A stretch of DNA of 28,925 bases from Candidatus Nanohaloarchaea archaeon (GCA_030636615.1 DAOVWP010000001.1:1-28925); one strand, 5' to 3'. Shown: positions 1-26,821, counted from the first letter of the stretch. The notes: generated by a model from the sequence alone, not told the origin. Translations and numbers: made by a program.

Positions 1-53
1 AAGCAGAAATGAATCGTAAAAAGAAAATTTCAAGGAAAAAGTAGTGTCAAAGA

Positions 54-1157
54 TCAGGTGTGCAGCTCAATTATGTCTTTATCCATAATCCTGTGATCAA
101 GATTTTTCTGCTGGCCAGGGAATTTAGCTGATTTTCCCCAAATTTTTGCGAACTTGAAATCCTTGTTGAATGATCTGTTGAGCTTTTTACATACATCATG
201 TATGGTATTTCCTTTTCTCATTATGAGCGGATCACTCATATCAGCTTCTTTTCCGAGGGGTTTTGTATATATCCGGAGGTATCCTATCTTGTCAATTATC
301 TTGTCTTTAAGCATGTCAAGATTTTCTTCATTTCTTGCAGATATTGAAATTACATCTTCTTTTCGAAAATCCCTTAAAAGTGTCTCCTTCTGTGTTTCCG
401 ATATTGCATCAATCTTGTTGAGAACTACAAACATCTTCACATATATCCTGTTAGCGCGAATTACATCTATCAACTCATTATCATCAATGTTGTCATGTAT
501 TATAAGATCTGCGTTGCTTATCCTGTAACCTTTGAGGACAGATCTAATTGTATCACGAGTTATCTTTGTCAGGCGGACAGACGAGTTTATCATAATTCCA
601 CCCCTGTCTTTTTTTATTATCTTAACATTTGGTTTTGATACATTCATCCTGATACCTGAATCATATAATTCCTTTTTCATGTTTTTGAATTGATTTGTGT
701 CTTTTTTGGCATCAACTATTATCAGCAGGAGATCAGATATCCTTGCAACTGCAAGAACTTCCTTACCTCGTCCTTTTCCTGATGCTGCTCCAGTGACCAG
801 CCCGGGAACATCAAGTATCTGGAGATTTACATCACGATGAGCAAGCATGCCCGGAATGACATCAAGAGTAGTGAAATCATAGGCGGCTACTTCAGATTCA
901 GCGTTTGTAAGATAGTTAAGAAGTGTTGATTTACCGACAGACGGATAACCTACAAGGACAACAGTACCGTCACCGCTTTTTTTTACTGAGTAACCACCCC
1001 ATGAAGAACCAGTACCTTTCTTTTTCTGAGTAATTGTGTCTTCAATATTTGCAATCTTTGCTTTCAAAAGACCGAGGTGTCCCTGGGTTGCTTTGTTTGA
1101 TGGTGTCTTTGCCAGTTCTTCTTTCAATTTATCAAGTTTTTCATTATCGTGTTCCAT
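54..1157 (-). CDS. drg: DRG/Rbg1-family (OBG superfamily) GTPase with C-terminal TGS domain
   Basis: G1 GYPSVGKST, G2 YDFTT, G3 DVPG, G4 NKID; N-terminal HLGLLKAKIA and C-terminal IYTKP...IWGKSAKFPGQ typical of DRG proteins. Confidence 0.96.
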   Translation of the reverse strand: MEHDNEKLDKLKEELAKTPSNKATQGHLGLLKAKIANIEDTITQKKKGTGSSWGGYSVKKSGDGTVVLVGYPSVGKSTLLNYLTNAESEVAAYDFTTLDVIPGMLAHRDVNLQILDVPGLVTGAASGKGRGKEVLAVARISDLLLIIVDAKKDTNQFKNMKKELYDSGIRMNVSKPNVKIIKKDRGGIMINSSVRLTKITRDTIRSVLKGYRISNADLIIHDNIDDNELIDVIRANRIYVKMFVVLNKIDAISETQKETLLRDFRKEDVISISARNEENLDMLKDKIIDKIGYLRIYTKPLGKEADMSDPLIMRKGNTIHDVCKKLNRSFNKDFKFAKIWGKSAKFPGQQKNLDHRIMDKDIIELHT

Positions 1158-7118: not shown

Positions 7119-7156
7119 TTTTTTGTTTAATTTTATTTTTTGTTTAATCTTTTTTT
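7119..7156 (+). terminator. Oligo-T archaeal-type terminator region between convergent genes
   Basis: T-rich tract directly after the stop at 7117, containing TTTTTTGTTTAAT twice (7119-7131, 7136-7148). Confidence 0.55.
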
Positions 7157-7664
7157 ATTGTTCAGACCACAGTATAAAGTTCAGGTCTGTCTCTATCAGG
7201 TCATCTGAGTTGTTATAGAGTATAATGCGTGATTTTGAAACAATGTCTGTGGCATTGTCACCAACATGTTCACCTATAGAGTAAAAGGTATCTGATGAAT
7301 TGCTGATTGTCAGATTGTAATGATAAAGGTTTATCGCCCATAATGATTTAAGGGTGGATTGGTCTATAGCTGAAAGTGAGTCAAGTTTTCTATTGCTTAT
7401 ATATAAATCCTCATCAAGCAGACCTGGGAGTCTTACAGTTGATGCGTTCCATTCATTTGGATAACCTTTTGTTCTTACAAGAAGTTCTGTGATATACTCA
7501 GCTTTTTGCGAGAGATATTTGTAGTGCTGGAAATCTGTTGATTTTGATTCGATTGCGTTCCAGGTCATATAGGTCAGAGATATTATTGCGAAAAAAATAA
7601 TTGCACTTACCATGAAATCCGTCGAGAGAACCATACCTTTTTTCTTACAATATGCTGGATACAA
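7155..7664 (-). CDS. Prepilin-like protein with class III signal peptide (KKG/MVLSTDF type)
   Basis: KKKG followed by a hydrophobic helix with an acidic residue near +5/+6. TTG start preceded by GGAGGTG at 6 nt spacing; overlaps the upstream gene by 20 nt. Confidence 0.8.
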   Translation of the reverse strand: MYPAYCKKKGMVLSTDFMVSAIIFFAIISLTYMTWNAIESKSTDFQHYKYLSQKAEYITELLVRTKGYPNEWNASTVRLPGLLDEDLYISNRKLDSLSAIDQSTLKSLWAINLYHYNLTISNSSDTFYSIGEHVGDNATDIVSKSRIILYNNSDDLIETDLNFILWSEQ

Positions 7665-8058
7665 ATATTACACCTCCTATATTTGAGATTGTGTTTTTGC
7701 CTGCTGAGATTGTTCCATTAACATCTGAGCTGACAATTTCTGAAAATACTGTCCGATCATTCCATTCCACAAAAATAAGGTCTTCTTCAATAGTTATATT
7801 ATATAGATAATTCATAAGTGTATCCGGAAGAGTGAAATTTGCTGAAAACCCGTCAGATTCAGCAAAAGCAATATTGATTCGACAGGCAACTTTGTCGGAG
7901 ATATATTCAGCTTCCCTTGATTCTTTATATGCAATAAAATCCTGCTGGCTGGAAGACAGATTAAGATAGAATACAGTAAATATCGTAAAGATGAATATTA
8001 CAAGCATCATGAATTCTATTCCTACCTGAGCAGACCTGTTATTCATATCATTATTCAC
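7645..8058 (-). CDS. Prepilin-like protein with class III signal peptide (RSA/QVGIEF)
   Basis: Canonical archaeal [KR]-x-[GA]/Q-x-x-x-E motif, then a hydrophobic helix. GTG start with GGGTGA 6 nt upstream. Confidence 0.87.
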   Translation of the reverse strand: MNNDMNNRSAQVGIEFMMLVIFIFTIFTVFYLNLSSSQQDFIAYKESREAEYISDKVACRINIAFAESDGFSANFTLPDTLMNYLYNITIEEDLIFVEWNDRTVFSEIVSSDVNGTISAGKNTISNIGGVIFVSSIL

Positions 8059-8503
8059 TGATATTCACCCAAATTGATCCCTGCGAACTTACAGCTTTGA
8101 CAATTATCTTATGGAGACCTTCACTATTTGTAAGGTTACCGCTTATGTTAAAATCAACACCTTCAACAATTGAGTTGGTGATGTTTCCATGAGTAACATA
8201 GAAAATGATTTCCTGCTTATCTATGACAATTGAGTTGATATTAGATGGAAAATTTACTGAAACTGACATCTTTGAAGGCGGACCCTGGGCTTTTACAATC
8301 TTGCTTGCTTCAACTATAGTATTGAGTGAATTTGATACCTGGATGTTTCGGTTGGTCTCTGTAAGATTAGTTGTCTGGTCTGAGATAATAATATAGACTG
8401 GGAGAAGAAGAAGGATTGCTATAAGGACTATAAGTACAAACTCAATGGAGACCTGTCCATGGCGGATGTTTTGTTTTAAATAAATATTGGAAAAATATAT
8501 CAT
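8051..8503 (-). CDS. Prepilin-like protein with class III signal peptide (RHG/QVSIEF)
   Basis: GQVSIEF motif, hydrophobic helix, and a globular domain with a GPPSK...FP segment as seen in small archaeal pilins. Confidence 0.88.
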   Translation of the reverse strand: MIYFSNIYLKQNIRHGQVSIEFVLIVLIAILLLLPVYIIISDQTTNLTETNRNIQVSNSLNTIVEASKIVKAQGPPSKMSVSVNFPSNINSIVIDKQEIIFYVTHGNITNSIVEGVDFNISGNLTNSEGLHKIIVKAVSSQGSIWVNISE

Positions 8504-9535: not shown

Positions 9536-11374
9536 ATGGGACTAAACAAAACAAGCAAGGCGGGGAAAGTTGGAAAGAAGAAAACAAAAGATATTATAAC
9601 CAAAAATCAAAAAAAAATACATCCAAGTCTACCTGCTGAAAATAAATTAAGTAAAAATGTAGTAAAGCTTGAAGAATCCCTTAAAAAAGCAACAGCAATA
9701 AAAACAACAAAAGAAGATAATAAGGATACTGCAACAAAAATAAAAAAAGAAGTGACAGAGAAGATAACAAAACCACTGAAAGCAAAAAAAGATAATAAGA
9801 ATACTGTAACAGAAGTTAAAAATGAGAAGATAATACATAAGAAAAAAGTGGTAAAGACAAAAAATGATGATCAGAAGATAGTTGATAAATATGATCTCTG
9901 CGCAGATGGTGTAAAAGCACAGGTCCTCATAATAAAAAATAAAAATGATTATGTCCCGTTCTATAAACTTGTAAAACCAGAATTACAGGAAGCAACACAA
10001 TCAATCCTTAAAGATGTGAGGGAAAAAGTCATATCAATCGTGCAGTTGAGTGAGAATGAGTTTGTTGATCCAAAAGCCTTAAGTGAAGTCAAGAAAAGGT
10101 TTATGGAAAAATCTGATGAGATACTCAAGGAAGATCTTCCGTTCCTAAGTGAGAATGACCGAAAAGTGCTTGTGGGAAAACTTATACACCAGATGCTTGG
10201 TCTTGGTGATATTGAACTTCTTCTTACAGATTCACAAATAGAAGAGATTGTCATCAACAGATGCAATGAACCGGTCTGGATATTTCACAAAAAGCAAGGG
10301 TGGATGAAGACTTCTATCATATTCGATACAGAAGAGTCAATATATAATCTGACGAGTTCTATAGGTAGGAAGGTCGGTAGGGAGATTACAAACCTGAATC
10401 CTCTGATGGATGCACACCTGTCAACAGGAGATCGGGTAAATGCTACGATGTTTCCAATATCTTCTTTCGGAAACACTATGACGATAAGGAGGTTTTCAAG
10501 AGATCCATGGACTATTGTGAAAATGATAGATCCAAAGGTAAAGACTATGTCTGTCGAGATTGCCGCTCTGTTGTGGTTATGCATGCAGTACGAGTTAAAC
10601 ATACTTGTAGTCGGCGGTACTGCATCAGGCAAGACATCAACGCTTAATTCAATAATACCTTTTGTCCCGCCAAACCAGAGAATCGTATCCATAGAGGATA
10701 CGCGTGAGATCAAGCTGCCAAAGTTTATGCATTGGGTACCACTTTCATCAAGACAGCCAAATCCTGAAGGAAAAGGTGGAGTGCAGATGATAGATCTTCT
10801 TGCTAATGCAATGCGTATGCGTCCAGACAGGATCATTGTCGGTGAGATCAGAAGAGAAAATGAAGCAGAAGTAATGTTTGAGGCAATCAGGACCGGTCAC
10901 TCAGCTTATGCAACATTTCATGCCGATCGCGCAGAGCAGGCATATACAAGAATAACCAATCCTCCAATCAATCTTCCTGAACCTCAGGTCAGCGCGCTGC
11001 ATGTCATAATTGTGCAGTACAGACACAGGCGGCTTGGAGTACGAAGGACTATGGAATTTGCTGAAATAATACCTATGGAAGCTATTGGGAAAAATAAAGT
11101 AAATGTCATCTATAAATGGAATCCAAGAGAGGATACTTTCGATAAAGTGGGAAGACTTGTAAGGATTATGAGAGAGTTGAGCCATTATACAGGGATGAGT
11201 GATACAGAGATTGAAGATGATCTTAAAGAAAAGGAAATTATACTCAACTGGATGCTTAAGCATGAGGTTTTTGATGTAGATCCAGTTGGCAAGATATTTG
11301 CGGAATATTACAGAGATCCAAAAAGAATTGCCAGTTTTGCCAGAAGAAATAAATTACCTGATGAGTTGATATAA
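9536..11374 (+). CDS. Type II/IV secretion (CpaF/TadA/VirB11/FlaI-like) pilus assembly ATPase
   Basis: Walker A GGTASGKTS, Asp box IVSIEDTRE, Walker B RMRPDRIIVGEIR, His box GHSAYATFHA; Lys-rich N-terminal extension of about 110 aa. Confidence 0.95.
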   Translation: MGLNKTSKAGKVGKKKTKDIITKNQKKIHPSLPAENKLSKNVVKLEESLKKATAIKTTKEDNKDTATKIKKEVTEKITKPLKAKKDNKNTVTEVKNEKIIHKKKVVKTKNDDQKIVDKYDLCADGVKAQVLIIKNKNDYVPFYKLVKPELQEATQSILKDVREKVISIVQLSENEFVDPKALSEVKKRFMEKSDEILKEDLPFLSENDRKVLVGKLIHQMLGLGDIELLLTDSQIEEIVINRCNEPVWIFHKKQGWMKTSIIFDTEESIYNLTSSIGRKVGREITNLNPLMDAHLSTGDRVNATMFPISSFGNTMTIRRFSRDPWTIVKMIDPKVKTMSVEIAALLWLCMQYELNILVVGGTASGKTSTLNSIIPFVPPNQRIVSIEDTREIKLPKFMHWVPLSSRQPNPEGKGGVQMIDLLANAMRMRPDRIIVGEIRRENEAEVMFEAIRTGHSAYATFHADRAEQAYTRITNPPINLPEPQVSALHVIIVQYRHRRLGVRRTMEFAEIIPMEAIGKNKVNVIYKWNPREDTFDKVGRLVRIMRELSHYTGMSDTEIEDDLKEKEIILNWMLKHEVFDVDPVGKIFAEYYRDPKRIASFARRNKLPDELI

Positions 11375-11409
11375 ATTATCCTGAAGTTGCCAGTTGTTTA
11401 GTCGCAATA

Positions 11410-12291
11410 TTGAAAAAGGGAGGGGTGGGAGTTATAGATAAGATGAAAAGAAAGATGAAGATACCCTCCAGATTCAAGGTTTTTGCAGAATCGATTGAGC
11501 CATATTTCTCATCAGTCAAAATAGACCTTCTACGGGCACGCATAGATACTAAGCTTACTGATTTTCTTGCGGAAACCTGTTACAAGAGCTTTAATATGGG
11601 TCTCATGTTTTTAATGTGTATGGTGATTTTGGGAGTATTTACAAAAAATATTAAGATTATAGGTATGGGACTTCTTATCGGACCGATCATAACAGGATTT
11701 ATCTTTTACAGTCTCCTATATGGGCCAAAAGTCAAGGTCAACAAGAAGGCAAAACTTATTGATAAGAACCTGCCATTTGCGCTCAGGCATCTTCTGATAG
11801 AGCTTAAGTCAGGAATACCTTTATATCAGGCAATAGTTGCTATATCCACAGATTATGATGAGTTGTCTGATGAGATAAGAGATATAATAAAAGAGATAAA
11901 CAGCGGTAAGTCTGAAATTAAAGCAATTGAAGAGAGTATCTCACTATCTCCTTCAAAAAATTACAGACGTGCGTTCTGGCAGATATTGAATGCTATAAAA
12001 ACCGGTACAGATATAAGTATCACGCTTGAGTCAACAGTAGAGAACATAACACAAAGACAGCTTATAGCGATAAAACAATATGGACAGGAACTCAATCCAT
12101 GGACACTTATGTATATGATGACTGCTGTAATCGCTCCATCGCTCGGGCTTACATTCCTTATGCTTCTGTCAAGTTTTACAGGACTTAACATCCCTGAGTG
12201 GGGAATGTATATCATGTTATTTTTCCTTGCAGTGTTTCAGCTATTCTTCCTGAATGTTGTGAAGTCAAGAAGACCTATGGTGAGAATATGA
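11410..12291 (+). CDS. Type II secretion system F-family (TadB/TadC/FlaJ-like) membrane platform protein 1
   Basis: IDKNLPFALRHLLIELKSGIPLYQAI motif and several TM helices, directly downstream of the ATPase. Start may be the ATG at 11443 rather than the TTG at 11410. Confidence 0.9.
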   Translation: MKKGGVGVIDKMKRKMKIPSRFKVFAESIEPYFSSVKIDLLRARIDTKLTDFLAETCYKSFNMGLMFLMCMVILGVFTKNIKIIGMGLLIGPIITGFIFYSLLYGPKVKVNKKAKLIDKNLPFALRHLLIELKSGIPLYQAIVAISTDYDELSDEIRDIIKEINSGKSEIKAIEESISLSPSKNYRRAFWQILNAIKTGTDISITLESTVENITQRQLIAIKQYGQELNPWTLMYMMTAVIAPSLGLTFLMLLSSFTGLNIPEWGMYIMLFFLAVFQLFFLNVVKSRRPMVRI

Positions 12292-13357
12292 TTGATAACA
12301 AAAAACTCCTCAAAAAGATAGAAGATCTGAAACAGGGAGTTAGCAGCAGGACAACTGAGAAGAAGAATTATCCGAAGATAATCTATGACCTTCTGCCGGA
12401 AAAGTACAGGAAGAAGATAGAGATTGAAGCGGATTATGCTGGGATTTATACACCAATCCATAACTATTTCGCAAATGTCATGAAAGCCTGTATTGCAATT
12501 GAGTTATTACTATTATTAATTATTACTCTCTTTTTCGGTATTGGCGTGAAACTTATTTTGGTCTATATTATTCTTGCTTTAGGTGTTAGTGTTTTTGTAC
12601 CATATATTCTTCTTACAATACTTTCAGAACATAAAAAAAGAATATGGAAGAAGTGCTGCCGGATCTGCTTGTACTTGTCGCGTCAAATATAAGATCTGGT
12701 CAGACAATTGACAAGGCGTTGTTTTTCGCTGCAAGAGATGAGTTCGGTGAATTATCAGTAGATGTCAGAAAAACTGCAATGAAGATATACAGCGGAACGG
12801 ATATAGGTCATGCATTACTGCAGCTTACAAATAGAGTGAAATCGTTCAGTTTCAAGAGGACTATGAAAATGTTAGCTGAGGGATTAAAAAGCGGTGGAAA
12901 TATTGCAGTTCTGCTTGATGAGAGCGCGTCAGATATACGCAGCACAAAGATACTTCTTAAGGAAATCGCTACATCTGTGCAGATGATGATCATGTTCATA
13001 TTTATAGCAGGTGTGCTTGCATCTCCTGCAATGTTTGCCATATCAAACTATCTTATAGTTAAAATGAGTAGTATGTGGAGTGGTGTTGACTCCTCTGCAT
13101 TTGAAGGAGCAAGTGCAGGTGGTGGTCTTATGTCTGCTTTAGAATTTGGTGAAACAAGCATTTCACCGGCGTTTTTTGATATGTTTTCTATATGGTGCAT
13201 ACTTATAACCACAATCTTTGGAGGTATGATAGTGTCTCAGATCAAAACAGGCAATATCAAAGACGCTGTTAAATATTCACCTCTATTCTCTGTTATTGCT
13301 ATAGGGATATATCTTGCTATAAAATATGTACTGTTTCAACTCCTTGGGGCAGCTTAG
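12288..13357 (+). pseudogene. T2SS F-family (TadB/TadC-like) membrane protein 2, split by a one-base frameshift at the A7 run 12633-12639
   Basis: ATG at 12288 overlaps the previous stop (ATGA) with GGTGA upstream. The N-terminal part (two TM helices) goes out of frame at CAT-AAAAAAA-G; the -1 frame continues MEEVLPDLLVLVASNIRSGQTIDKAL. One extra A gives a continuous 356-aa protein (...HKKKNMEEVLPD...). Could be a sequencing error rather than a true pseudogene. Confidence 0.85.
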
Positions 13358-14372: not shown

Positions 14373-15608
14373 TCAATATATGAGGGATTGAGCACCCATT
14401 GAAGTTATATGATCATTATCCAGCATGAACCATGACAGTTCATTACTTACACCCATAAGGCGGTTAATACTGCCTGAATATCCTGAAAAGTAAAGATAAT
14501 CAATTGCAGTGTTGTTGAGTCTCATTGACTGCGGAAGTGATCTCAGATCCACAAAGGTTGCAAGGCCATAAGATGTTACATTATAATCCGGACTCATAGC
14601 AGATGAGCATTCAAACCGGTCAAAAAATGATGGGGCATCAAGGTCTTCAAAATAGCAGCCGGATTCTATTTCAGATAAGATATTGTTGAACCATACACTA
14701 CCTGACGAGTTGATCATCACAAAATAATCATTATCCTGCGCAGAAGCAAGCGCGCCTGCAACTATTTCTATTACAGGAACACTCAGATCAGTAGTATTGA
14801 TGTTCTCTTCAAACACAAGGCCTCTGAATGAGTTGAGATCAGTTGTGTCAAGACCGTCCTTGTTTGCTGAGACAAATATTTTGTTTCCTGCATCAGGACT
14901 ATTTATATCTGTAGTCACATATCCGCTGATAAATGGCTCAGAGAAACTTTCACTGATGCCTGAGTCAATGAAACCAAGCCGTTCTGTATGGTTGCAGATA
15001 TTGAATTTGCGTATGATATAGCTGTTGCTGTAAACAGAGAGATAGGGATCTTCAAACAGATCTATCCGGAGCAGCTGGCTGATAATATATGATTTATTGA
15101 ATGTTATTTCAACACTTGGATCTGAAGCTATGAAATTAACACTGCTTGTTATGTTCAGGGTAAATGGTGATGACGATGTGTTAAATGATATGGAATGTAT
15201 GTCTACTGTGCAGTCTATACCTATATCGCTGCTCATGAATACTACATTCTGTATCCAGTCGTCAAGGGTTGAGCCATTGAGAATATGTGAAGGCGTTCCG
15301 TTTATTGTGCCGTTAAAAATAGTCTCTAAAAATACTGCTGAAACATTGTCCACACATTTACCATCTGTGATTGTCTGACTTGTTGTTGCAATTATTGCTC
15401 TTTTCGTTGATATGATAATAGATCGTTCGATATCTTTTCTCAGGTCTGCCATAAAGAAATATAGTTCATCGCTCCTGAGCTTTGAGATCATCTCATCAGA
15501 AGTTCGCTGGTTTTCAGTATTTACATAAAATATAATCGGCGCAAAGGTTGCAATAACAAAAAGCGCGAACAGAGTATATATTACACCTTTTCTTCTTATC
15601 TTAATCAC
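14373..15608 (-). CDS. Large prepilin-like protein with class III signal peptide (RRKG/VIYTL), 411 aa
   Basis: RKG followed by a hydrophobic helix, a long amphipathic helix, and a C-terminal APSFFDRF motif. GTG start overlaps the vWA gene stop by 8 nt. Confidence 0.82.
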   Translation of the reverse strand: MIKIRRKGVIYTLFALFVIATFAPIIFYVNTENQRTSDEMISKLRSDELYFFMADLRKDIERSIIISTKRAIIATTSQTITDGKCVDNVSAVFLETIFNGTINGTPSHILNGSTLDDWIQNVVFMSSDIGIDCTVDIHSISFNTSSSPFTLNITSSVNFIASDPSVEITFNKSYIISQLLRIDLFEDPYLSVYSNSYIIRKFNICNHTERLGFIDSGISESFSEPFISGYVTTDINSPDAGNKIFVSANKDGLDTTDLNSFRGLVFEENINTTDLSVPVIEIVAGALASAQDNDYFVMINSSGSVWFNNILSEIESGCYFEDLDAPSFFDRFECSSAMSPDYNVTSYGLATFVDLRSLPQSMRLNNTAIDYLYFSGYSGSINRLMGVSNELSWFMLDNDHITSMGAQSLIY

Positions 15609-18600
15609 CTATTGATAATGTAGTGACAATCGGACCCCATAGCCAAGGTATGTCTGAGATGAATGAAGGTCTGAAGTTTATATTGTCTGAAATAAGCACA
15701 ACATCAAGACGATGGTCCATATTGTTGTCAAGCGTTTCAAAAAGCCTGTATGCCGCATCAATATAGGCATCATCAGTTGTCAGTGTCTGGCTTGAGTTGG
15801 TATAGTAGCATAGGTCTGATCCTGAATAGTCTGACGGAACAGTTATGTTTGTTGTGGTTGCATCATAAAATTCTACTTCCCAGATACACCCCTCGGATTC
15901 TGTGAACACTTCACCATAATCAACATAAGATCTTACTTTCAGCTTGTAGATTATCTTGTTATCAGGCGATCCTCCTTTTGGATTGTTTGGATCCAGTCCT
16001 GTCCTGACATTTACATAATTGTATTTTCCGGAAGAAATATACTGCAAAGGTATGTCTATTATGAACGGATCACCAAGAGACTGGTAAAGTGAATTGTAAT
16101 CATATAGTGAATATATTACTGAGCCGTTTGATGTAATGTCTGAAGAGATATTAATCTCATCAGTCCACCATTCTGAAGAGTAGGATATAACTTTTGCCTG
16201 AGAAACATGAGTGTTGTTGGGCACCATAAGTTGTCCTCTTTTAAAAGGCATATCTATATCATCTCCTGAAAAAGAACTGAATAATCCTGATTCCATATCA
16301 AGTGTGATGTTACCATAATTTTCAGATGATTCCTGTATGTATGAGTAAGATATGTTTGATATCGGATAAAGAATAATGTTGCTGAAATCACCTGTGAGCG
16401 TGGCAACCTGAGAATCATATCGCACAAGCGCGTTGGCAATACTTTCATATATCAGTATAAGCTGTTGGGCATCATTGCTTAAATAGTAATCTCCTCTTCC
16501 GCAATCCGCTATTCCTCTCATAGTAAAAGCATCAGATTCACTTCCGAAACCAATAGCATGTATAATAACACCATAGTCTCTGTGCAGATCGCATGCCGCT
16601 TTTATCGCATCGACAGAACTGCTGCCTGTACTCTGCGCGGCGCAGGATGTAGTAGCTGCGCCATCGCTCATGACTATTATAAACTTGTTCCTTAGATCTG
16701 TAAGTATCAGCTCAAGATCAAACTTGGCTGAGACATTTGGATTTACAAGTTCTACTGCAATTACATTATCACCAATAACAAGATTTGATGTTCTAATCAC
16801 AATCTCTTCGCTGTTCCAGTACTTTGCTGGTGTATCATCGTGTGATTGTTCATGAACAAGATTACCATTTATGTATACATTTGCATAACCATCAGCAAGA
16901 AGGTTCAAAAGAAGTTTCATCTCAGTCATGTTGGTTATATTGAAATGCTTCCTGAAGTAATAGGTATCTGTTCCGCTTGAGTTGACAAGCTTGAGACAGA
17001 TGTTATCAAATAGGATTTCTATACCTTCATTATCGCTCTTTGTCCCGCTCCTGTTTACCCAATCTACTATGCCACCAAGACTGAGATAGTATTTGCCTGA
17101 TCCTGCAACATATTCTGTAATGTCCTGACTGAAATGGCCACTATTTGGATCAGGAGCGAAACCGGATGATGGACTTGTCGAAGATGCCCAGACCTCATTT
17201 GTCTCATCAGACATGTTGTCAAGGTTTCTTCCAAGATAATTTGAAGTGGAATTATAATCAATCCTGGCTTTTATCCATGCAAACTCTTCAAGATCATTGT
17301 CCTCATCATCAACAGTCCAGTCGAATCCTATATGGAGTTCAGCGCCTGAGCTGATCATGTCATACTGTTGAGTTGTTATGTTGAAATCAATTCCCCATGC
17401 TCCACTGGCAATATATTCACTGTATCCTGTGTCAAATCCGCCAATCTTTACGCTGATCGACCCGGCCGTAATCTGATCTGATGCGCCATTAGGGTCACCA
17501 TGTATTGTAAAGCTTTCAGGCATGTTATTGTAGTCTGTGAATGGGTTGTCTGCCCAATCCCAGCCATCCTGCGCCCCGCTAAGTCCGAATGTGTTGGCAG
17601 TATAGTTGAGAGCGCTGAAAGTTACGCATTCTGAAGAAGATGAAGGAGAGCAGTTTTTTTCCCATAGATCTGCAACAAAGTAGTCTGTTGCATTTGAAAC
17701 GACAAAAGAAATGTTTCTGAAATACGCGCCAAGACCTTCGTTTGAACCTTTGCCGTTTGAATCTGAATCTGCCCAATCTACTTTTGCGCCGAAGTCTATG
17801 TAGTACCAGCCTGATCCGTTTATGTATTCAGAGATGTTTTCTGAAAAAGTTCCGTAATAATAACCATCCCACCCCTTCTTATGTTCGTCTACTAATGCCC
17901 ATACCTCATTTGAACTGTCTTCAAAAATTGCATCAGCTCCATGGTCTAAGTCTGAGCCGAGCCAGTTCATGTCGGTACTGTTTCCAAATCTTGCTTTTAT
18001 CCATGCGCCTTCTTCCAGATCATCATCAAGATCATCGGCGTACCATAAGAATGAATAATTGGCTGACCCATTATTGTTGATTATGTCTATCGCATATTGA
18101 GGTATGTAGAATTCTACGCCAAAAGCAGCGCTGTCAATCACATTATCCGGACTGTTGCCGTCATCTCCTATAATCACTTCAAGCTGTGTCCTGTCAGACA
18201 GACCATCATACCTATAGACACCTGAGCCAGTATTTGTATCATAGTCTGTTATGCCTTCAGGATCGCCGAACCTTGAATGATCTGATGTGGAGTCACCCAC
18301 ATAATCTCTCCACCAATCCCAACCATCATTGCTTCCTGATAGTTCAGGTGTATTGTCGGTTGAGTTAAAACCGCAGAAGAAAGTAGTTCCGTTGAACTGT
18401 GGAGTTTCCATATAACCATCCCATAGATCCATGTAGCTTTCGTTTGGATTTGATGAAGGATCAATTATTGTATTAATCAGAATTCCACTTATGTTGTCTG
18501 TGCCGAGAACTGCGTTGCCTGTACTCCACATAGATTCAAGGGAGTAATTATAATCTGACCAATTGTAATCAAGCCCGTCCGGCGCAGGAGCAATATTTGT

Positions 18601-20148
18601 ATAGTTCCATGTGTCTCCCGCAGTGATAAGTCTATCATAAGTAATATCTGGAGTCAGTAAATTTCCTGCTGAGTTGATACCGCAACAGATACATGTCCCT
18701 CCACTAGCATTATAGCCGTCTATTTCATTATCAAGAGTTGTCTGATCATCTGTAAGAGATATAACACTGTCAGTTGATGACTCATAAGATACAAGTCCGA
18801 CCATCTGACCATCATTACCAAGTATAGTATTCACAAAATTCTTGTCCAGCTTGATAGCAAGGCTCATACGATCAGTACCATTGTCGTCATCATCTGTGCT
18901 CCATGGCCAATTGAAACCCATACTGCCTGAGACATCAGTAACAAGAACCACATCACTTCCCTGAGAGAGTCCTGTGACATTCCTCATACCTATCCTTATA
19001 GGAATTGTCTTTAGACTAAGGTTTGTATTGTAGCTTTCAAAAAACTGTGAAATTGTGGAATTATCAATTATATGAATGCCTGTATTATTTGTTGAATATA
19101 CCTCCTGATCAGCAATCTTTACATAGAGTGTGTAGTTGTTGAGGATTGATAATGATATGTTTAGCTCTGTCAGATTACCAGGAATATAGAATGAGTCATA
19201 CAGATTTATCAAGCCGGTTATCCCTGGGAGATATAGTACATCTGATACTGTATTGTTGGCTGAGGTATCTGCAAGGGCAATATTCGATACATTATAGGTG
19301 AGTGCGATGTATCCTCCTGCAATATAGCCGAAATTATCGGAAATAAAATTGATTGAAATGTTGTTTCTTCCGGGTTGAATGTAGTTGTAATATGAATTGT
19401 TTAGGGTCCATTTGTCTGATCTCATATACCCCCCACCCATTGATCCATTATAATATATGCCTGCAGGCTGATCATTAAGTGATAATCTGAAGTTCTCATA
19501 AACATTTAGTTCCATTGTAATGTTGATGAGTGAGTCGAAGTCCTGGGGGAGATCGATATATGAAGTGATATTACCCTCACCTACATAACCTCCAAAGTAT
19601 ATGTAATCTGTGAAAAGCTGGGAGTGGATGCTTTCAATATTAAGCCTTGCGACATATCCTCTTCCTGTTGTGTTTGTCTTGTATCCTGAGACAATCCTTG
19701 ATGCAGATGTCACATGTTCGGACAAGTCCAGATCTCCTCTTGAAGCAATCAGATATGTTATATCCTCAGATGTAATTGAAAACTCAAAGTTGATATCTTG
19801 CGGAAATACTGATGAGAGGTAGCCGTAAGTTACATTTTCGGCAAGAGTTGAATGTCCTTCTGCCCAAAGCCGCCCGATTATATCCAAAAGTGATTCATCA
19901 AGGTTTTGCGCAGTTATGTTTGTTGAGCTGAGTATTTCCTGTTTTGTCGATTCTGGAAGTTGTGTACCTTTAGAAAGGGAAAGAAGCTGGGCCGCGTCTT
20001 CCGCCTGATAGTGGAGTTCTTCATAGTTTGAAGAGAGAACCAATGGAGTTGTATCAATATTTATAGTAAGTATATAGAGGGAGAGGATTATCATAAAAGC
20101 AAGCAAAGCATCTATTGTAAAAATTACACCCTTTCTGGATAAATACAT
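15601..20148 (-). CDS. Giant prepilin-like adhesin (RKG/VIFTIDA) with a split von Willebrand factor A domain, 1515 aa
   Basis: Class III-type N-terminus; MIDAS DVSGS (about 18922-18936), GGT (about 18700), VMSDG (about 16661-16675) and IHAIGFG, with an insert of about 650 aa inside the vWA fold. Confidence 0.9.
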   Translation of the reverse strand: MYLSRKGVIFTIDALLAFMIILSLYILTINIDTTPLVLSSNYEELHYQAEDAAQLLSLSKGTQLPESTKQEILSSTNITAQNLDESLLDIIGRLWAEGHSTLAENVTYGYLSSVFPQDINFEFSITSEDITYLIASRGDLDLSEHVTSASRIVSGYKTNTTGRGYVARLNIESIHSQLFTDYIYFGGYVGEGNITSYIDLPQDFDSLINITMELNVYENFRLSLNDQPAGIYYNGSMGGGYMRSDKWTLNNSYYNYIQPGRNNISINFISDNFGYIAGGYIALTYNVSNIALADTSANNTVSDVLYLPGITGLINLYDSFYIPGNLTELNISLSILNNYTLYVKIADQEVYSTNNTGIHIIDNSTISQFFESYNTNLSLKTIPIRIGMRNVTGLSQGSDVVLVTDVSGSMGFNWPWSTDDDDNGTDRMSLAIKLDKNFVNTILGNDGQMVGLVSYESSTDSVISLTDDQTTLDNEIDGYNASGGTCICCGINSAGNLLTPDITYDRLITAGDTWNYTNIAPAPDGLDYNWSDYNYSLESMWSTGNAVLGTDNISGILINTIIDPSSNPNESYMDLWDGYMETPQFNGTTFFCGFNSTDNTPELSGSNDGWDWWRDYVGDSTSDHSRFGDPEGITDYDTNTGSGVYRYDGLSDRTQLEVIIGDDGNSPDNVIDSAAFGVEFYIPQYAIDIINNNGSANYSFLWYADDLDDDLEEGAWIKARFGNSTDMNWLGSDLDHGADAIFEDSSNEVWALVDEHKKGWDGYYYGTFSENISEYINGSGWYYIDFGAKVDWADSDSNGKGSNEGLGAYFRNISFVVSNATDYFVADLWEKNCSPSSSSECVTFSALNYTANTFGLSGAQDGWDWADNPFTDYNNMPESFTIHGDPNGASDQITAGSISVKIGGFDTGYSEYIASGAWGIDFNITTQQYDMISSGAELHIGFDWTVDDEDNDLEEFAWIKARIDYNSTSNYLGRNLDNMSDETNEVWASSTSPSSGFAPDPNSGHFSQDITEYVAGSGKYYLSLGGIVDWVNRSGTKSDNEGIEILFDNICLKLVNSSGTDTYYFRKHFNITNMTEMKLLLNLLADGYANVYINGNLVHEQSHDDTPAKYWNSEEIVIRTSNLVIGDNVIAVELVNPNVSAKFDLELILTDLRNKFIIVMSDGAATTSCAAQSTGSSSVDAIKAACDLHRDYGVIIHAIGFGSESDAFTMRGIADCGRGDYYLSNDAQQLILIYESIANALVRYDSQVATLTGDFSNIILYPISNISYSYIQESSENYGNITLDMESGLFSSFSGDDIDMPFKRGQLMVPNNTHVSQAKVISYSSEWWTDEINISSDITSNGSVIYSLYDYNSLYQSLGDPFIIDIPLQYISSGKYNYVNVRTGLDPNNPKGGSPDNKIIYKLKVRSYVDYGEVFTESEGCIWEVEFYDATTTNITVPSDYSGSDLCYYTNSSQTLTTDDAYIDAAYRLFETLDNNMDHRLDVVLISDNINFRPSFISDIPWLWGPIVTTLSIGD
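16981..18429 (-). repeat. Two tandem protein repeats (period 253 aa) inside the vWA adhesin
   Basis: DLW starts at 18429 and 17670 (759 nt apart). Shared motifs in order: SGxxDGWDW, GDP, S(A/G)A(F/W)G, DDxDxDLEExAWIKAR, (W/Y)LGxxLD, NEVWA, FSxxIxEY, GSGxYY, VDW, NEG, FxNI. Confidence 0.9.
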
Positions 20149-24378: not shown

Positions 24379-26821
24379 TTACAACACCCTGTATATATAT
24401 AGTTCCATTATAATTATCAGCAAATATTGGTGGTATATTGATCCAGTACCACATAGTTATATTTGTCAATGATGACACATTAAACTTTAAAGGCATATAT
24501 GTCTTTGTCAGATTATATGAAGTAGTATATAAATTTGAACTGTTGCTCCATGTAAAATTTCCTACACTAAGAATATGCTTCGTCTTATATCCTTCCATAT
24601 CTGTTCCTTTTATATATAGATCCGTATCGCAGCTACCATCATTTATTGTTATATTATAAAGATCATCATTATTGCCCAATGCAGGATTTTCATAAGTATT
24701 AGGCATTAGAGGATTTGAGAAATTTATATATTCCCAATTGACTGTAAGATCCACAACACAAGGCACTACTGAAATTTCTGATGATAATGTAGTGTTCAAA
24801 GTGGTCCAGCCGGAGTCTGAGCTGAAATTGACATCCAGTTTCCATAGATTGAAATCAGGATCAGTAGCATTCACTATCCAGGAAATATTGCAATATTCAT
24901 TTTCAGATAATGGATTTGTTACACAGGATTTTGTAGATAGTGGTGATGCTTCATCAATGAAGAACGGTTCAGCACCATATGTTATATCTATTGCTGTGTC
25001 CGGATCTGATGATGTCTTATTATAGCGCACTGTCGCAAACACATTGCCGCAATTACCTTCTGCGCATATGACTGTCGCATTTACGATAAATTGCGTATTC
25101 CGTATTATATTTGTAGTAAAAACTGTACTTGGTTCTATAAGTTCAACTTCAAGCGTTGTATTAAATGTAAAATAAACAACAGTACTGTTGAGATTTCCGG
25201 CAGTATCATTTGCATATATAGTTATATTATTAAAGCCTTCTGTTGCTGTTATTGTTGTGTTGGGGTCAAAGGTCACGTTTGAATTTCCATTAAGGCTATA
25301 TTGCCAAGTATCAATAGACTCCTCGGCGCTGACATTAAGGTCAAGTTGTTTGTTAAAATATGTAATGTTCTCTGGCGAATAAAGATATAATACAGGAAGC
25401 ACTGTATCAACTGTAAAATATACAGTCACTTCAGATTCGTTCATATTGCCTGAACTATCGTTGCAGGAATATATGATGTAATGAGATAACTCAGGGAGGC
25501 CTTCTATAAGGCTGTACCAGTCGGTCGCAGATGTGTTTGACATTGTGATATTTGCTGCGCCGTCAAGAGAGTAGCCGCACCATGAACCGTTTTCATTAAG
25601 TGTCAGGTTTGCCCAGACAGAAGTTGAATTATATGACTTGTTCAATGGGAATTGGATTGTGATTTCCGGGGGTATTGTATCAACTGTACTGAAACTATAT
25701 ATTTCAGATACATTCATGTTTCCTGCAGTATCGTTAGCATATACCAGCCAGCTTATAATAGAGTCTACAGTTGAGTTGATCTGCTTGCTGACATTTGACC
25801 AATTACCTGTTCCGATCATACTGACATAAGTATCATTTTCAAATGTTTCGTTGCCATTATCAAAAGAAAATATATAACCTGCAAGAGCATAATCTGTCCA
25901 GTAAAGACTGAACAGCACATCTGTTCCGGCTTCAGTAGAATTTGTCTGATTTAAAGAATATTCAGGATACTCCGTATCGACGGTAAAATATACTGTGACT
26001 TCTGATTCGTTCATATTGCCTGAAGTGTCATTACACGAAAATATGATGTTATGACTTGACTCAGATAAGCCCTCAACAAGGCTGTTCCAGTTGCCGGTTG
26101 TATTTGACATAGTTACATTAGCTGCACCGTCAAGCGAATAGCCGCACCATTCACCCTCTTCATCAAGCGTTAGGTTTGCCCAGACAGAATCAATATCATA
26201 AGATTTGTTTAAAGGCGACTGAACTGTCAATTGCGGAGCTACTTCATCATCATAAATCAATACAAGATCAATCTCATCCCAAAAATTTCTGATCATAGGA
26301 ATATCAGATATTGAAGTCTCAACAGAATTATACAGTTTTATTTTGTATGTGCCAGTCGAAGAAAAATTATTTATACCAATACCAATAGACTCTGAAGTAT
26401 ATACAGCATCATCTGCAGTTGATGAACGCGAAAAAAGCTGGACTTCAGAACTGTCTGGTTTTATCAGAAATACTTTTATAATATTTGCTGTTGGAGCTGC
26501 AAGATCCCAAGTCTGCTTATATGAGAATAATGCAGTTGCAGAAGTAATAGTCCCTGGATTTGACCAAGTACTACCATCATTGGTGAGATTTCCTGAGACG
26601 CTATACCCTGTATCATCCAGGCTATCATTGACTTCAAAAATCCACACACCTGGGTCATCCTTTCCGCCAGAGATACTAAAATTTGATTCTGCAATATCAC
26701 TAAGATCATCTTCAGAATAGGTCCAACCGACAGAACTACCAGAAGTAAAATTACCATTAACTATAAAATTCTGCTGAAGTGAATAGATTGATGGCAATAA
26801 AATAACTAGTACTATCAACAA
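24359..26821 (-). CDS. Large secreted Ig-repeat protein (820+ aa) with a C-terminal subunit-like domain; true start probably at 26843 or 26847, across a T7 run
   Basis: Truncated-looking signal peptide, N-terminal NGNF jelly-roll-like domain, four Ig-like repeats (YxNDTxGN motif), a Cys-paired domain, and a C-terminal IPP...YNGTIYIQG domain; no TM anchor. Confidence 0.85.
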   Translation of the reverse strand: MLIVLVILLPSIYSLQQNFIVNGNFTSGSSVGWTYSEDDLSDIAESNFSISGGKDDPGVWIFEVNDSLDDTGYSVSGNLTNDGSTWSNPGTITSATALFSYKQTWDLAAPTANIIKVFLIKPDSSEVQLFSRSSTADDAVYTSESIGIGINNFSSTGTYKIKLYNSVETSISDIPMIRNFWDEIDLVLIYDDEVAPQLTVQSPLNKSYDIDSVWANLTLDEEGEWCGYSLDGAANVTMSNTTGNWNSLVEGLSESSHNIIFSCNDTSGNMNESEVTVYFTVDTEYPEYSLNQTNSTEAGTDVLFSLYWTDYALAGYIFSFDNGNETFENDTYVSMIGTGNWSNVSKQINSTVDSIISWLVYANDTAGNMNVSEIYSFSTVDTIPPEITIQFPLNKSYNSTSVWANLTLNENGSWCGYSLDGAANITMSNTSATDWYSLIEGLPELSHYIIYSCNDSSGNMNESEVTVYFTVDTVLPVLYLYSPENITYFNKQLDLNVSAEESIDTWQYSLNGNSNVTFDPNTTITATEGFNNITIYANDTAGNLNSTVVYFTFNTTLEVELIEPSTVFTTNIIRNTQFIVNATVICAEGNCGNVFATVRYNKTSSDPDTAIDITYGAEPFFIDEASPLSTKSCVTNPLSENEYCNISWIVNATDPDFNLWKLDVNFSSDSGWTTLNTTLSSEISVVPCVVDLTVNWEYINFSNPLMPNTYENPALGNNDDLYNITINDGSCDTDLYIKGTDMEGYKTKHILSVGNFTWSNSSNLYTTSYNLTKTYMPLKFNVSSLTNITMWYWINIPPIFADNYNGTIYIQGVVNGSQQP
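25404..26236 (-). repeat. Two highly similar Ig-like repeats of about 88 aa (about 25975-26236 and 25404-25668)
   Basis: Both contain PLNKSY-x3-SVWANLTL, WCGYSLDGAANxTMSNT and SCNDxSGNMNESEVTVYFTVDT; similarity is also clear at DNA level. Confidence 0.9.

What the first reader, a model, noticed from the sequence alone, without database searches (positions are those of the whole stretch)
16430..18954. Russian-doll adhesin: vWA domain split by a beta-sandwich that is itself split by tandem repeats
Seen: MIDAS DxSxS and the Thr (GGTCICC) lie about 650 aa before the final Asp (VMSDG), whereas canonical vWA domains have only a few tens of residues there. The insert starts LITAGDTWNY...WSTGNAVLG and ends YYFRKHF...ADGYANVYING...GDNVIAVEL, two halves that resemble a galactose-binding-like jelly roll, and the 253-aa repeats sit between them. 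All MIDAS residues are retained. Inference: three nested levels, with a variable ligand-binding cassette carried on a metal-dependent, possibly mechanosensing vWA pilus tip, akin in logic to PilY1 or RrgA but on a class III prepilin.
Basis: partly seen in the sequence, partly recalled or inferred. Interest (0 to 1): 0.72.

Follow-up and report, generated by a model that had tools for sequence, protein, structure and literature searches.

The report
Nested-domain pilus adhesin of DPANN archaeon
A 1515-residue pilin-like surface protein of a tiny symbiotic (DPANN) archaeon carries a metal-binding vWA domain that holds a sugar-binding-type jelly roll that in turn holds two copies of an undescribed beta-sandwich domain, and relatives swap these nested cassettes often, so it is a good candidate for the part that decides what the cell sticks to.

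Summary
Gene 15601-20148 (-) encodes a 1515-aa protein. Its vWA domain is split after helix alpha3: MIDAS D405/S407/S409 and T485 lie 677 aa before D1162. The AlphaFold model superposes both halves on whole vWA domains (Z 24.7; 178 residues at 1.7 A). The insert is a GH2-domain-1-like galactose-binding jelly roll, also in two halves that fold together (Z 14; profile E 1e-9 to 1e-7). Between them sit two 240-aa repeats (35% identical) with no Pfam or PDB sequence match and a CBM/MAM-like fold.

Homologues give a graded series at the same sites: no vWA (~640 aa), vWA only (~840), plus jelly roll (~1030), plus one repeat (~1250), plus two (~1500), or a repeat itself split (~1600). LamG-type cassettes occur instead in some. 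Architecture changed at least 24 times on a 116-protein tree.

The gene sits in a conserved pilin operon of an Epd/Tad-like type IV pilus locus. The closest known proteins are CpaL/TadG and PilB. Adhesion, tip location and mechanosensing are inferred, not shown. This scan noted the same family earlier in an Aenigmatarchaeota genome (e1-1247325).

Verdict: real, a new variant of a known kind, of moderately high interest.

The parts
15601..20148 (-). Whole gene, 1515 aa (P0001), one open frame. Its stop overlaps the start of the next gene by 8 nt.
20059..20148 (-). Class III (prepilin-type) signal-like N-terminus, residues 1-30: M-Y-L-S-R-K-G, then V-I-F-T-I-D-A-L-L-A-F and a hydrophobic helix. 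The [KR][KR]G-x-[FY][FY][ST]-x-D-A pattern is conserved in the family.
   Evidence: Cleavage is inferred. Pfam Class_IIIsignal is not matched.
18955..20148 (-). Family-specific N-domain, residues 1-398. It has no Pfam match and 17 N-glycosylation sequons.
   Evidence: Predicted to pack against the C-domain.
18655..18954 (-). vWA N-half, residues 399-498: beta1 to alpha3, with MIDAS D405-x-S407-x-S409 and T485 in the conserved G-G-T-C-I-C-C-G motif.
18445..18654 (-). N-half of the galactose-binding-like (GH2 domain-1-like) jelly roll, residues 499-568.
17686..18444 (-). Repeat 1 (REP), residues 569-821: an acidic, Trp-rich domain of about 240 aa with a CBM/MAM-like beta-sandwich core.
16975..17685 (-). 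Repeat 2 (REP), residues 822-1058.
16693..16974 (-). C-half of the jelly roll, residues 1059-1152 (YYFRKHF ... VYING ... GDNVIAVEL).
16420..16692 (-). vWA C-half, residues 1153-1243: beta4 ending in the invariant MIDAS Asp1162, then alpha4 to alpha6.
15604..16419 (-). Family-specific C-domain, residues 1244-1515. No Pfam match.
14373..15608 (-). Downstream 411-aa protein with the same kind of R-K-G/hydrophobic N-terminus. It is the conserved follower gene, a candidate partner minor pilin.
7155..7664 (-). 169-aa K-K-G/hydrophobic protein. In relatives it is encoded immediately upstream of the vWA gene.
7645..8503 (-). Two small pilins (137 and 150 aa) with G/A-Q-V-x-I-E-F class III signals.
9536..13357 (+). 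Pilus motor block: a T2SSE-type ATPase (9536-11374) and T2SSF/TadC-type membrane protein ORFs (11410-13357).

Best explanation
P0001 is the large modular minor-pilin-like subunit of an Epd/Tad-like archaeal type IV pilus in a DPANN archaeon. It is the counterpart of bacterial TadG/CpaL and of PilB.

How it is built:
- A class III signal and hydrophobic helix put it into the membrane and, most likely, into the pilus. It probably sits at the tip, together with the conserved neighbours of 169 and 411 aa.
- The N- and C-domains form one body.
- Out of this body projects an optional payload, a complete MIDAS-bearing vWA domain.
- From the alpha3-beta4 connection of the vWA, on the face opposite the metal site, grows a GH2-domain-1-like galactose-binding jelly roll.
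- From a loop of that jelly roll grow two copies of a 240-aa CBM/MAM-like beta-sandwich.

The result is a multivalent adhesin. The MIDAS would bind an acidic residue of a protein ligand. The three lectin-type modules would bind glycans, plausibly on the envelope of the host cell that such episymbionts attach to.

The payload evolves by repeated loop insertion, duplication, loss and exchange of cassettes, which would retune specificity.

Shown: the nested architecture, the folds, the conservation of the MIDAS, cassette turnover, and the operon context. Inferred: signal cleavage, incorporation into the pilus and tip position, metal and ligand binding, and a role in host recognition.
For: Split vWA:
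- Pfam matches the two halves separately.
- The AF2 model has pLDDT above 90 over both halves.
- VIA-align places whole vWA domains on model range 9..866: 6tnj Mfa5 Z 24.7 with 196 aa; 4fx5 178 aa at rmsd 1.7; 7b7p PilB Z 23.6.
- MIDAS residues are invariant or nearly so.

Jelly roll:
- GH2 domain-1 hits reach Z up to 14.1, with 130-140 aa aligned over model range 5..655.
- Contiguous domains of 158-163 aa superpose at rmsd 2.5-2.8.
- 13 relatives carry the domain uninterrupted. Their profile hits rhamnosidase and GH2 sugar-binding domains at E 1e-9 to 1.7e-7.

Repeats:
- The two copies align at E 7e-32.
- They belong to a family of at least 75 proteins.
- CBM70, MAM and other CBM hits have Z 8-10.4 and cover up to 149 of 161 residues.

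Graded series and turnover.

vWA-less orthologues in the same gene slot.

N- and C-domains predicted to bind: ipSAE 0.86 against 0.01 for the best of 3 controls. The mark was reached by 58 of 80 solved complexes and 2 of 110 mismatched pairs, and these counts hold only roughly because my own alignments were used.

Pilus context:
- T2SSE, T2SSF and class III pilins are in the window.
- The operon order is conserved in other genomes.
- A Peptidase_A24 gene is in the genome.

Surface location: 50 N-x-S/T sequons and an acidic composition.

Precedents: PilB (PMC8179133), CpaL/TadG (PMC11870444) and Kil tips (PMC12075869). Pili link ultrasmall cells to hosts (PMC7906910).
Against: - There is no experimental datum for any member of the family.
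- The N-domain (about 370 aa after the helix) is much larger than a pilin module, and its fold was not determined.
- Pfam Class_IIIsignal and the TadE/TadG N-terminal models do not match.
- About 75 residues at the start of each repeat are modelled with pLDDT below 50, so the repeat fold is only partly known. Its structural matches (Z 8-10) are only slightly above the background quoted by the tool.
- GH2 domain 1 is not in itself a proven lectin.
- About half of the related genomes have a vWA-less orthologue, so the payload is dispensable for whatever the core protein does.
Confidence: 0.62

Rival explanations
1. The protein is not a tip adhesin. It is a membrane-anchored priming or anchoring component of the pilus machine, as was once proposed for TadG. 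The hydrophobic N-terminus stays in the membrane (uncleaved or cleaved), and the large ectodomain acts at the cell surface as an assembly initiator, a pilus anchor or a cell-proximal adhesin.
For: - The N-terminal segment equally fits a signal-anchor.
- The N-domain is far larger than a pilin head.
- vWA-less orthologues keep the N+C body, so the conserved function lies in the body and not in the adhesive payload.
- Makarova et al. cite the anchor hypothesis for TadG (PMC4858521).
- Loss of CpaL reduces the number of pili, which fits a priming role (PMC11870444).
Against: - Priming minor pilins generally end up at the tip, so the two readings are not exclusive.
- TadG was found in pilus preparations, according to PMC11870444.
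- Rapid cassette turnover fits an exposed recognition surface better than a buried anchor.
Confidence: 0.2
2. The vWA is mainly a mechanosensor, as in the PilY1/CpaL surface-sensing models. The nested beta-sandwiches act as a force-bearing handle or spacer and not as specific lectins.
For: - A vWA in pilus-associated proteins has been linked to mechanosensing (PMC9210963, PMC8806160, PMC11870444).
- The jelly roll is joined to alpha3 and beta4 by linkers of only about 5 and 2 residues, so a pull on the cassette would be transmitted into the vWA core.
Against: - No signalling partner is evident in the window.
- The genome is about 0.76 Mb as assembled (72% complete).
- High cassette diversity and lectin-type replacements (LamG3, Reelin-B-like, DUF2341) argue for binding specificity and against a generic handle.
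- Nothing here tests force.
Confidence: 0.08
3. The protein is a secreted or surface glycan-processing or nutrient-scavenging protein. The GH2-like and CBM-like modules target polysaccharide, and the protein has no structural role in pili.
For: The best structural and profile matches of the jelly roll are domains of glycosidases, rhamnosidases and sialate esterases. The repeat resembles CBMs of polysaccharide lyases and xylanases.
Against: - No catalytic domain was found anywhere in the 1515 aa.
- The gene is fixed within a pilin operon across distant genomes.
- It has a prepilin-type N-terminus.
Confidence: 0.05

Closest known systems
CpaL of Caulobacter crescentus (TadG orthologue of Tad pili), PMC11870444
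   Same: - It is a large minor-pilin-like protein of a Tad/Epd-type pilus.
- It is encoded with two smaller minor pilins.
- Its MIDAS-bearing vWA domain is divided in the sequence by a beta-rich insert that projects away from the MIDAS.
- It is predicted to sit at the tip.
   Different: - CpaL is split between the DxTxS loop and the Thr (residues 203/384). Here the split is between the Thr and the Asp (alpha3-beta4).
- The CpaL insert is two small beta-barrels with no nesting. Here it is a jelly roll that itself contains two further domains.
- The host here is an archaeon, there is no sequence match to the TadE/TadG N-terminal models, and the N+C body is much larger.
PilB (and PilC) modular minor pilins of Streptococcus sanguinis type IV pili, PMC8179133 and PMC9934059; structure 7b7p
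   Same: - Class III signal plus a pilin module plus a vWA with a functional MIDAS.
- Direct role in adhesion, with tip location proposed.
- The vWA of P0001 superposes on PilB at Z 23.6.
- PilC carries a ConA-like lectin module, and some relatives of P0001 carry LamG3 cassettes.
   Different: - In PilB the modules are joined end to end, and its 'arms' flank the MIDAS.
- Thr-to-Asp spacing in PilB is 28 residues.
- Here the vWA and the lectin-type modules are combined in one chain by nested insertion.
Tip adhesins RrgA, GBS104 and SpaC (sortase pili) and Mfa5 (type V pili), PMC7835359; structures 2ww8, 3txa, 6m48, 6tnj
   Same: - A vWA with MIDAS on a pilus tip protein.
- Nested domain organisation: the vWF domain is inserted in an IgG-like domain, and the vWA itself carries inserted subdomains.
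- These give the best structural matches: 6tnj Z 24.7, 6m48 Z 21.2, 2ww8 Z 18.7.
   Different: - Their ARM1 and ARM2 inserts lie in betaC and between beta4 and alpha4, forming a lid beside the MIDAS. Here the insert is on the opposite face and is 655 aa of autonomous domains.
- P0001 has no sortase or isopeptide features and a different assembly system.
GH2 N-terminal sugar-binding domain / Bac_rhamnosid_N (galactose-binding domain-like superfamily)
   Same: The fold and the sequence profile of the outer insert match: Z 14, E 1e-9 to 1e-7, including the F-D-D-S-x-W and Y-Y-F-R-K type motifs.
   Different: It is not attached to any glycosidase catalytic domain. Here it is interrupted by about 490 aa in the loop before the Y-Y-F-R-K strand.
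Integrin beta subunit (PSI, hybrid and betaI domains nested); own knowledge
   Same: Three-level nested domain insertion that involves a MIDAS vWA-type domain in an adhesion receptor.
   Different: In integrins the vWA-type domain is the innermost unit. Here it is a middle shell that hosts further domains.

Membership tests
vWA domain with MIDAS | Rossmann-like alpha/beta fold of about 180 residues | tested here: met
   AF2 model plus VIA-align: 178 residues at rmsd 1.7 on 4fx5, Z 24.7 on 6tnj, spanning both halves. Pfam VWA, VWA_2 and VWA_3 match the two halves.
vWA domain with MIDAS | DxSxS, Thr and Asp motif residues | tested here: met
   D405, S407, S409, T485 and D1162. They are at least 90% conserved, and D1162 is invariant in 118 sequences.
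vWA domain with MIDAS | Binds Mg2+ or Mn2+ | not testable with these tools
   Needs protein. No model coordinates were available to measure the geometry.
Modular type IV pilin (PilB type) | Class III signal peptide with a prepilin peptidase site | tested here: inconclusive
   An R-K-G / V-I-F-T-I-D motif followed by a hydrophobic stretch of about 20 aa is conserved in the family. Pfam PF04021 is not matched. Peptidase_A24 is present in the genome.
Modular type IV pilin (PilB type) | N-terminal module with a pilin fold | not tested
The N-domain has no Pfam or PDB sequence match.
Modular type IV pilin (PilB type) | Encoded with the pilus machinery and other pilins | tested here: met
   T2SSE, T2SSF and class III pilins are in the window. 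The order pilin-pilin-169 aa-vWA protein-follower is conserved in other genomes.
TadG / CpaL | TadE/TadG-type N-terminal sequence family | tested here: not met
   No Pfam Tad or TadE match at E up to 1.
TadG / CpaL | Large minor pilin with a vWA split by a beta-rich insert, next to two smaller minor pilins | tested here: met
   with the comparison to PMC11870444. The split site differs.
Galactose-binding domain-like (GH2_N / Bac_rhamnosid_N) | Jelly-roll fold superposable on GH2 domain 1 | tested here: met
   Z 14.0-14.1 with 130-131 aa at rmsd 2.5-2.6, over model range 5..655. All 50 top rows are GH2 domain 1.
Galactose-binding domain-like (GH2_N / Bac_rhamnosid_N) | Sequence-profile similarity | tested here: met
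   The profile of 13 uninterrupted relatives hits 3w5m at 1e-9 and 7cwd and 6ed1 at about 1.6e-7. In P0001 itself this profile detects only the C-half, 1060-1150. Pfam matches are below the cut-off.
PilY1 | C-terminal beta-propeller with a calcium site | tested here: not met
   No such domain was found by Pfam or NCBIfam. The C-domain has no match.
Carbohydrate-binding module or MAM-type beta-sandwich (for the 240-aa repeat) | Fold match covering the domain | tested here: inconclusive
   Z 8-10.4, for example 4d0q with 149 of 161 residues. This is only a little above the tool's stated background. There is no Pfam or PDB sequence match, and Atlas feature scores are at most 0.83.

The most novel reading that the evidence does not exclude
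The family is a loop-insertion 'payload rack' on the pilus of DPANN episymbionts. A conserved pilin-like body accepts a vWA domain. The vWA accepts a jelly roll at one fixed loop. The jelly roll accepts cassettes at two fixed loops. The 240-aa REP domain accepts yet another domain after its first ~36 residues, giving up to five nested shells. Fast gain, loss, duplication and exchange of cassettes would set host or surface range.

REP would be a new, insertion-prone glycan-binding domain family that also sits between FG-GAP propeller blades.

In P0001 the model also hints that the first strand of repeat 1 completes the core of repeat 2. If so, the 'tandem' pair is itself nested.
Probability: 0.3. 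Interest if true: 0.78.

Novelty: new variant of a known kind. Interest (0 to 1): 0.62.

Why it matters
DPANN archaea live attached to other cells, and pili have been seen bridging ultrasmall cells to hosts. The molecules that recognise the host are unknown.

This family is found in most related genomes searched and is usually single-copy. It sits in the pilin operon and carries the most variable surface-exposed module set in the locus. It is therefore a concrete, testable candidate for the specificity determinant.

It is also an unusually clean natural series for studying how multi-level domain insertion evolves, because every intermediate from 640 to about 1650 aa exists in nature. It also defines a 240-aa domain family without any database model.

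Tried and rejected
- Whole-protein self-BLAST did not report the repeat. A direct comparison of the two halves did.
- TRF found no DNA tandem repeat.
- phmmer of the whole protein against PDB found nothing. NCBIfam gave only a sub-threshold vWA hit.
- Foldseek with the whole 866-residue model gave low-TM multi-domain matches (IBDV VP2, reelin, beta-galactosidase). I did not use these. VIA-align resolved the domains.
- The repeat profile against PDB and the Atlas feature searches gave only weak leads.
- I looked for DGR-like template/variable DNA repeat pairs or other long repeats near the gene. There are none.
- No paralogue of the gene exists in the assembly.
- Similarity between the N-domain and the 411-aa neighbour is limited to the first ~80 residues (E 0.006). 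There is none with the 661-aa follower of L003.
- PilY1-like and sortase-pilin readings were rejected for lack of a propeller or sorting features.
- I did not test binding of P0001 to its 169- and 411-aa neighbours.

Full report
**The gene**

Window 15601-20148 (-) is one open frame of 1515 codons (P0001). The genome assembly is 758 kb in 146 contigs and 72% complete. Named homologues come from Woesearchaeota, Nanoarchaeota, Aenigmarchaeota and Parvarchaeota. The organism is therefore a DPANN archaeon.

The protein starts M-Y-L-S-R-K-G, then V-I-F-T-I-D-A-L-L-A-F and a long hydrophobic stretch. This pattern, [KR][KR]G-x-[FY][FY][ST]-x-D-A, recurs at the N-terminus of nearly all 120 homologues listed.

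**Observation**

- Pfam matches the vWA model in two pieces. Residues 399-492 match profile positions 1-86 of 174. Residues 1154-1222 match positions 97-154 of 155 of VWA_3.
- The Thr motif and the beta4 motif start 674 residues apart. They are 26-27 apart in 37 insert-free relatives.
- The two internal repeats align at 35% identity, E 7e-32.
- D405, S407, S409 and T485 are at least 90% conserved, and D1162 is invariant, in an alignment of 118 family members.

**Do the halves fold together?**

An AlphaFold2 model of residues 385-1250, built with 118 aligned sequences, has mean pLDDT 76 and values above 90 over both vWA halves. An exhaustive structural comparison put complete vWA domains on a model range of 9..866:
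- Mfa5 vWF (6tnj): Z 24.7, 196 residues.
- 4fx5: 178 residues at rmsd 1.7 A.
- PilB of S. sanguinis (7b7p): Z 23.6.
- SpaC, PitA, RrgA and GBS104: Z 18-21.

A whole vWA domain can only superpose over that range if both halves form one domain.

A second model covered the insert alone (residues 498-1152, 71 sequences, pLDDT 74). Its top matches were the N-terminal sugar-binding jelly roll of GH2 enzymes, with Z up to 14.1, 130-140 residues at rmsd 2.5-3 and 21% identity. These matches span model residues 5..655. Contiguous domains of 158-163 residues from the ESM Atlas superpose on residues 1-655 at rmsd 2.5-2.8. So the two jelly-roll halves also form one domain.

Independent evidence comes from relatives. 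Thirteen of them carry this domain uninterrupted (about 170 aa), and it aligns to P0001 490-549 plus 1061-1149. Their profile hits a rhamnosidase N-domain (1e-9) and GH2 sugar-binding domains (about 1.6e-7) in the PDB by sequence.

**The repeat**

Each unit has two parts. The first is a conserved N-terminal stretch of about 75 residues (L-W-E ... S-G-L-N-x-T-A-N-T-F-G ... D-D-G-W-D-W), modelled with low confidence. The second is a beta-sandwich core of about 165 residues, with pLDDT mostly 75-95.

The unit has no Pfam match and no PDB sequence match even as a 48-sequence profile. Structurally it resembles CBM and MAM jelly rolls, including the CBM70 hyaluronan-binding module (Z 10.4, 149 of 161 residues), MAM, CBM15, CBM27, CBM29 and CBM22. 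That is only modestly above the tool's stated background, so I treat the fold class as probable and the glycan-binding function as an inference.

The same domain occurs interleaved with FG-GAP repeats in other large proteins. It therefore behaves as an autonomous module that tolerates being inserted.

**Where the insert sits**

The model's secondary structure shows that helix alpha3 (487-498) is followed after about 5 residues by the first jelly-roll strand. The last jelly-roll strand (1142-1151) is followed after 2 residues by beta4 (1154-1161), which ends in MIDAS Asp1162.

In the vWA fold the start of beta4 lies at the end of the sheet opposite the MIDAS (established topology). The cassette therefore emerges from the face away from the metal site. 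This matches what was described for CpaL (PMC11870444). It differs from the ARM inserts of RrgA, GBS104 and Mfa5, which lie beside the MIDAS (PMC7835359). This step is an inference from topology, because I had no coordinates.

**The family series**

I used profiles of the jelly roll (GBD) and the repeat (REP) on 254 collected proteins. The stretch between the Thr and Asp motifs takes these forms:
- nothing (26-27 aa);
- a whole GBD;
- GBD(1-55)-REP-GBD(55-165);
- the same with two REPs (14 proteins, including P0001);
- a REP itself split after its first ~36-45 positions by about 300 unannotated residues (P0032, P0137, P0187, P0192);
- a GBD split at a second site near position 120 by about 150 residues;
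- a GBD split at both sites.

Other members carry Laminin_G_3 with DUF4215, or Laminin_G_3 with DUF2341 and a Reelin-subrepeat-B-like domain, at the same vWA loop.

**Turnover**

I built a tree from the scaffold columns only (116 proteins, 845 columns; quick IQ-TREE with SH-aLRT support; four truncated rows left out). It needs at least 24 changes of architecture. The minimum possible is 5, and the mean for shuffled labels is 52. The ten two-repeat proteins need ten changes, nine of them forced by strongly supported branches.

Close sisters differ in payload. Examples are P0002 (two REPs) against P0029 (LamG3, DUF2341, Reelin-B), and P0077 (none) against P0107 (240 aa).

A tree of repeat units shows independent recent duplications: P0002 R1/R2 are sisters at 100, P0014 at 99, and P0009 also groups its own copies. 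It also shows an older duplication shared by eight proteins. Repeat 1 of P0001 is sister to repeat 1 of P0003 at 53% identity, although their scaffolds are only 31-38% identical. That suggests either cassette exchange or stronger constraint on the cassette.

The root is not known, so gains and losses cannot be told apart.

**An outer shell**

The family N-domain was found in 31 of the 42 genomes held for the phylum, and in 9 of 10 high-quality ones. It is mostly single-copy.

About half of the positive genomes, including other genera of the window's own family, have an ORF of only 630-680 aa. In three loci fetched (L005, L006, L007) this ORF lies in the same slot, between the homologues of the 169-aa and 411-aa genes. 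It aligns to P0001 1-377 and about 1221/1245-1515, and the gap is exactly the vWA module.

A complex prediction of P0001 28-398 with 1244-1515 gave ipSAE 0.86 against 0.01 for the best of three controls, with about 450 confident contacts. The mark was reached by 58 of 80 solved complexes and 2 of 110 mismatched pairs in the tool's calibration. These counts hold only roughly, because my own alignments were used. This supports, but does not show, that the N- and C-domains form one body from which the vWA module projects.

The architecture is therefore body > vWA > jelly roll > REP-REP.

**Context**

The window holds the following:
- two small pilins with G/A-Q-V-x-I-E-F signals (8051-8503 and 7645-8058);
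- a 169-aa K-K-G-type protein (7155-7664);
- a T2SSE ATPase (9536-11374);
- T2SSF/TadC ORFs (11410-13357);
- P0001 and, overlapping its stop by 8 nt, a 411-aa R-K-G-type protein.

In other genomes the order pilin-pilin-169 aa-vWA protein-follower is contiguous. A Peptidase_A24 gene is on another contig. P0001 has 50 N-x-S/T sequons and is acidic, which suggests that it is surface-exposed.

**Comparison with what is known**

- Modular minor pilins with a vWA are known in S. sanguinis (PilB, PMC8179133).
- CpaL, the TadG orthologue of Caulobacter, is predicted to be a minor pilin whose vWA is split by a beta-rich region pointing away from the MIDAS (PMC11870444).
- Myxococcus Kil pili have exchangeable minor-pilin tips whose large TadG-like subunit bears a modular C-terminal domain (PMC12075869).
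- The 2016 census of archaeal type IV pili predicted large DUF2341 adhesins in methanococcal loci and mentions vWA proteins only as regulators (PMC4858521).
- My literature searches found no description of this archaeal family.
- This scan noted the same family earlier on other DNA (an Aenigmatarchaeota genome, e1-1247325).

I therefore class the finding as a new variant of a known kind. The kind (pilin plus vWA adhesin) is known. What is new is the archaeal family, the insertion site, the depth and combinatorial turnover of the nesting, and the REP domain.

**A hint left open**

All CBM-type structural matches to the insert model start at residues 70-77 and end at 556-563 in insert numbering. 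They run from the first strand of repeat 1 to the last strand of repeat 2.

This suggests that in the model the first strand of repeat 1 completes the core of repeat 2, and by symmetry that the first strand of repeat 2 completes core 1. The 'tandem' pair would then be topologically nested. The place matches the point, after about 36 residues, where REP is split by foreign inserts in P0032 and similar proteins. I could not check this without coordinates.

**Verdict**

The function (multivalent pilus adhesin, a candidate host-recognition device) is a reasoned inference at about 60% confidence. Mechanosensing is untested.

Noticed in passing
L005:3723-5636 (-), L006:3711-5636 (+), L007:3022-4977 (+): Orthologues of 637-651 aa lie in the same operon slot and lack the whole vWA module. 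They align to P0001 1-377 and about 1221-1515. About half of the positive genomes in the phylum have this short form.
   Followed up: yes
P0225, P0166, P0152, P0199 (proteins): The 240-aa REP domain also occurs interleaved with FG-GAP (integrin-alpha-type propeller) repeats in other large proteins. It is a mobile module that is not confined to the vWA family.
   Followed up: partly
P0032, P0137, P0187, P0192: In these relatives the REP domain is itself interrupted, after its first ~36-45 positions, by about 300 residues without a Pfam match. This is one more level of nesting.
   Followed up: partly
window 16975-18444 (insert-model residues 70-563): All CBM-type structural hits span from the first strand of repeat 1 to the last strand of repeat 2. 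This hints at a strand swap that would make the two repeats nested and not simply tandem.
   Followed up: partly
window 16501-18693 (Cys486, 488, 489, 1169, 1186, 1216): Six nearly invariant cysteines lie in the vWA domain: three in the T-C-I-C-C-G motif next to the MIDAS Thr and three in the C-half. They could form disulfides or a second metal site.
   Followed up: no
window 17686-18444 compared with P0003: Repeat 1 is 51-53% identical to repeat 1 of P0003, while the scaffolds are 31-38% identical and fall in different clades. This could mean cassette exchange between lineages.
   Followed up: partly
window 11410-13357 (+): The T2SSF/TadC-type gene is read as three overlapping ORFs (11410-12291, 12198-12692, 12644-13357). 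This may be a frameshift or an assembly error in the platform protein.
   Followed up: no
window 25390-26249: Two direct DNA repeats of 132 and 151 nt, at 75-80% identity and spaced about 570 nt apart, lie inside the 820-aa Big_13-containing gene. They point to an internal domain duplication in the neighbouring surface-protein cluster.
   Followed up: no
G021:C39:34793-39609: One related genome carries two adjacent full-length family genes (ORFs of 1554 and 1210 aa). This may be a case of two payload variants side by side.
   Followed up: no
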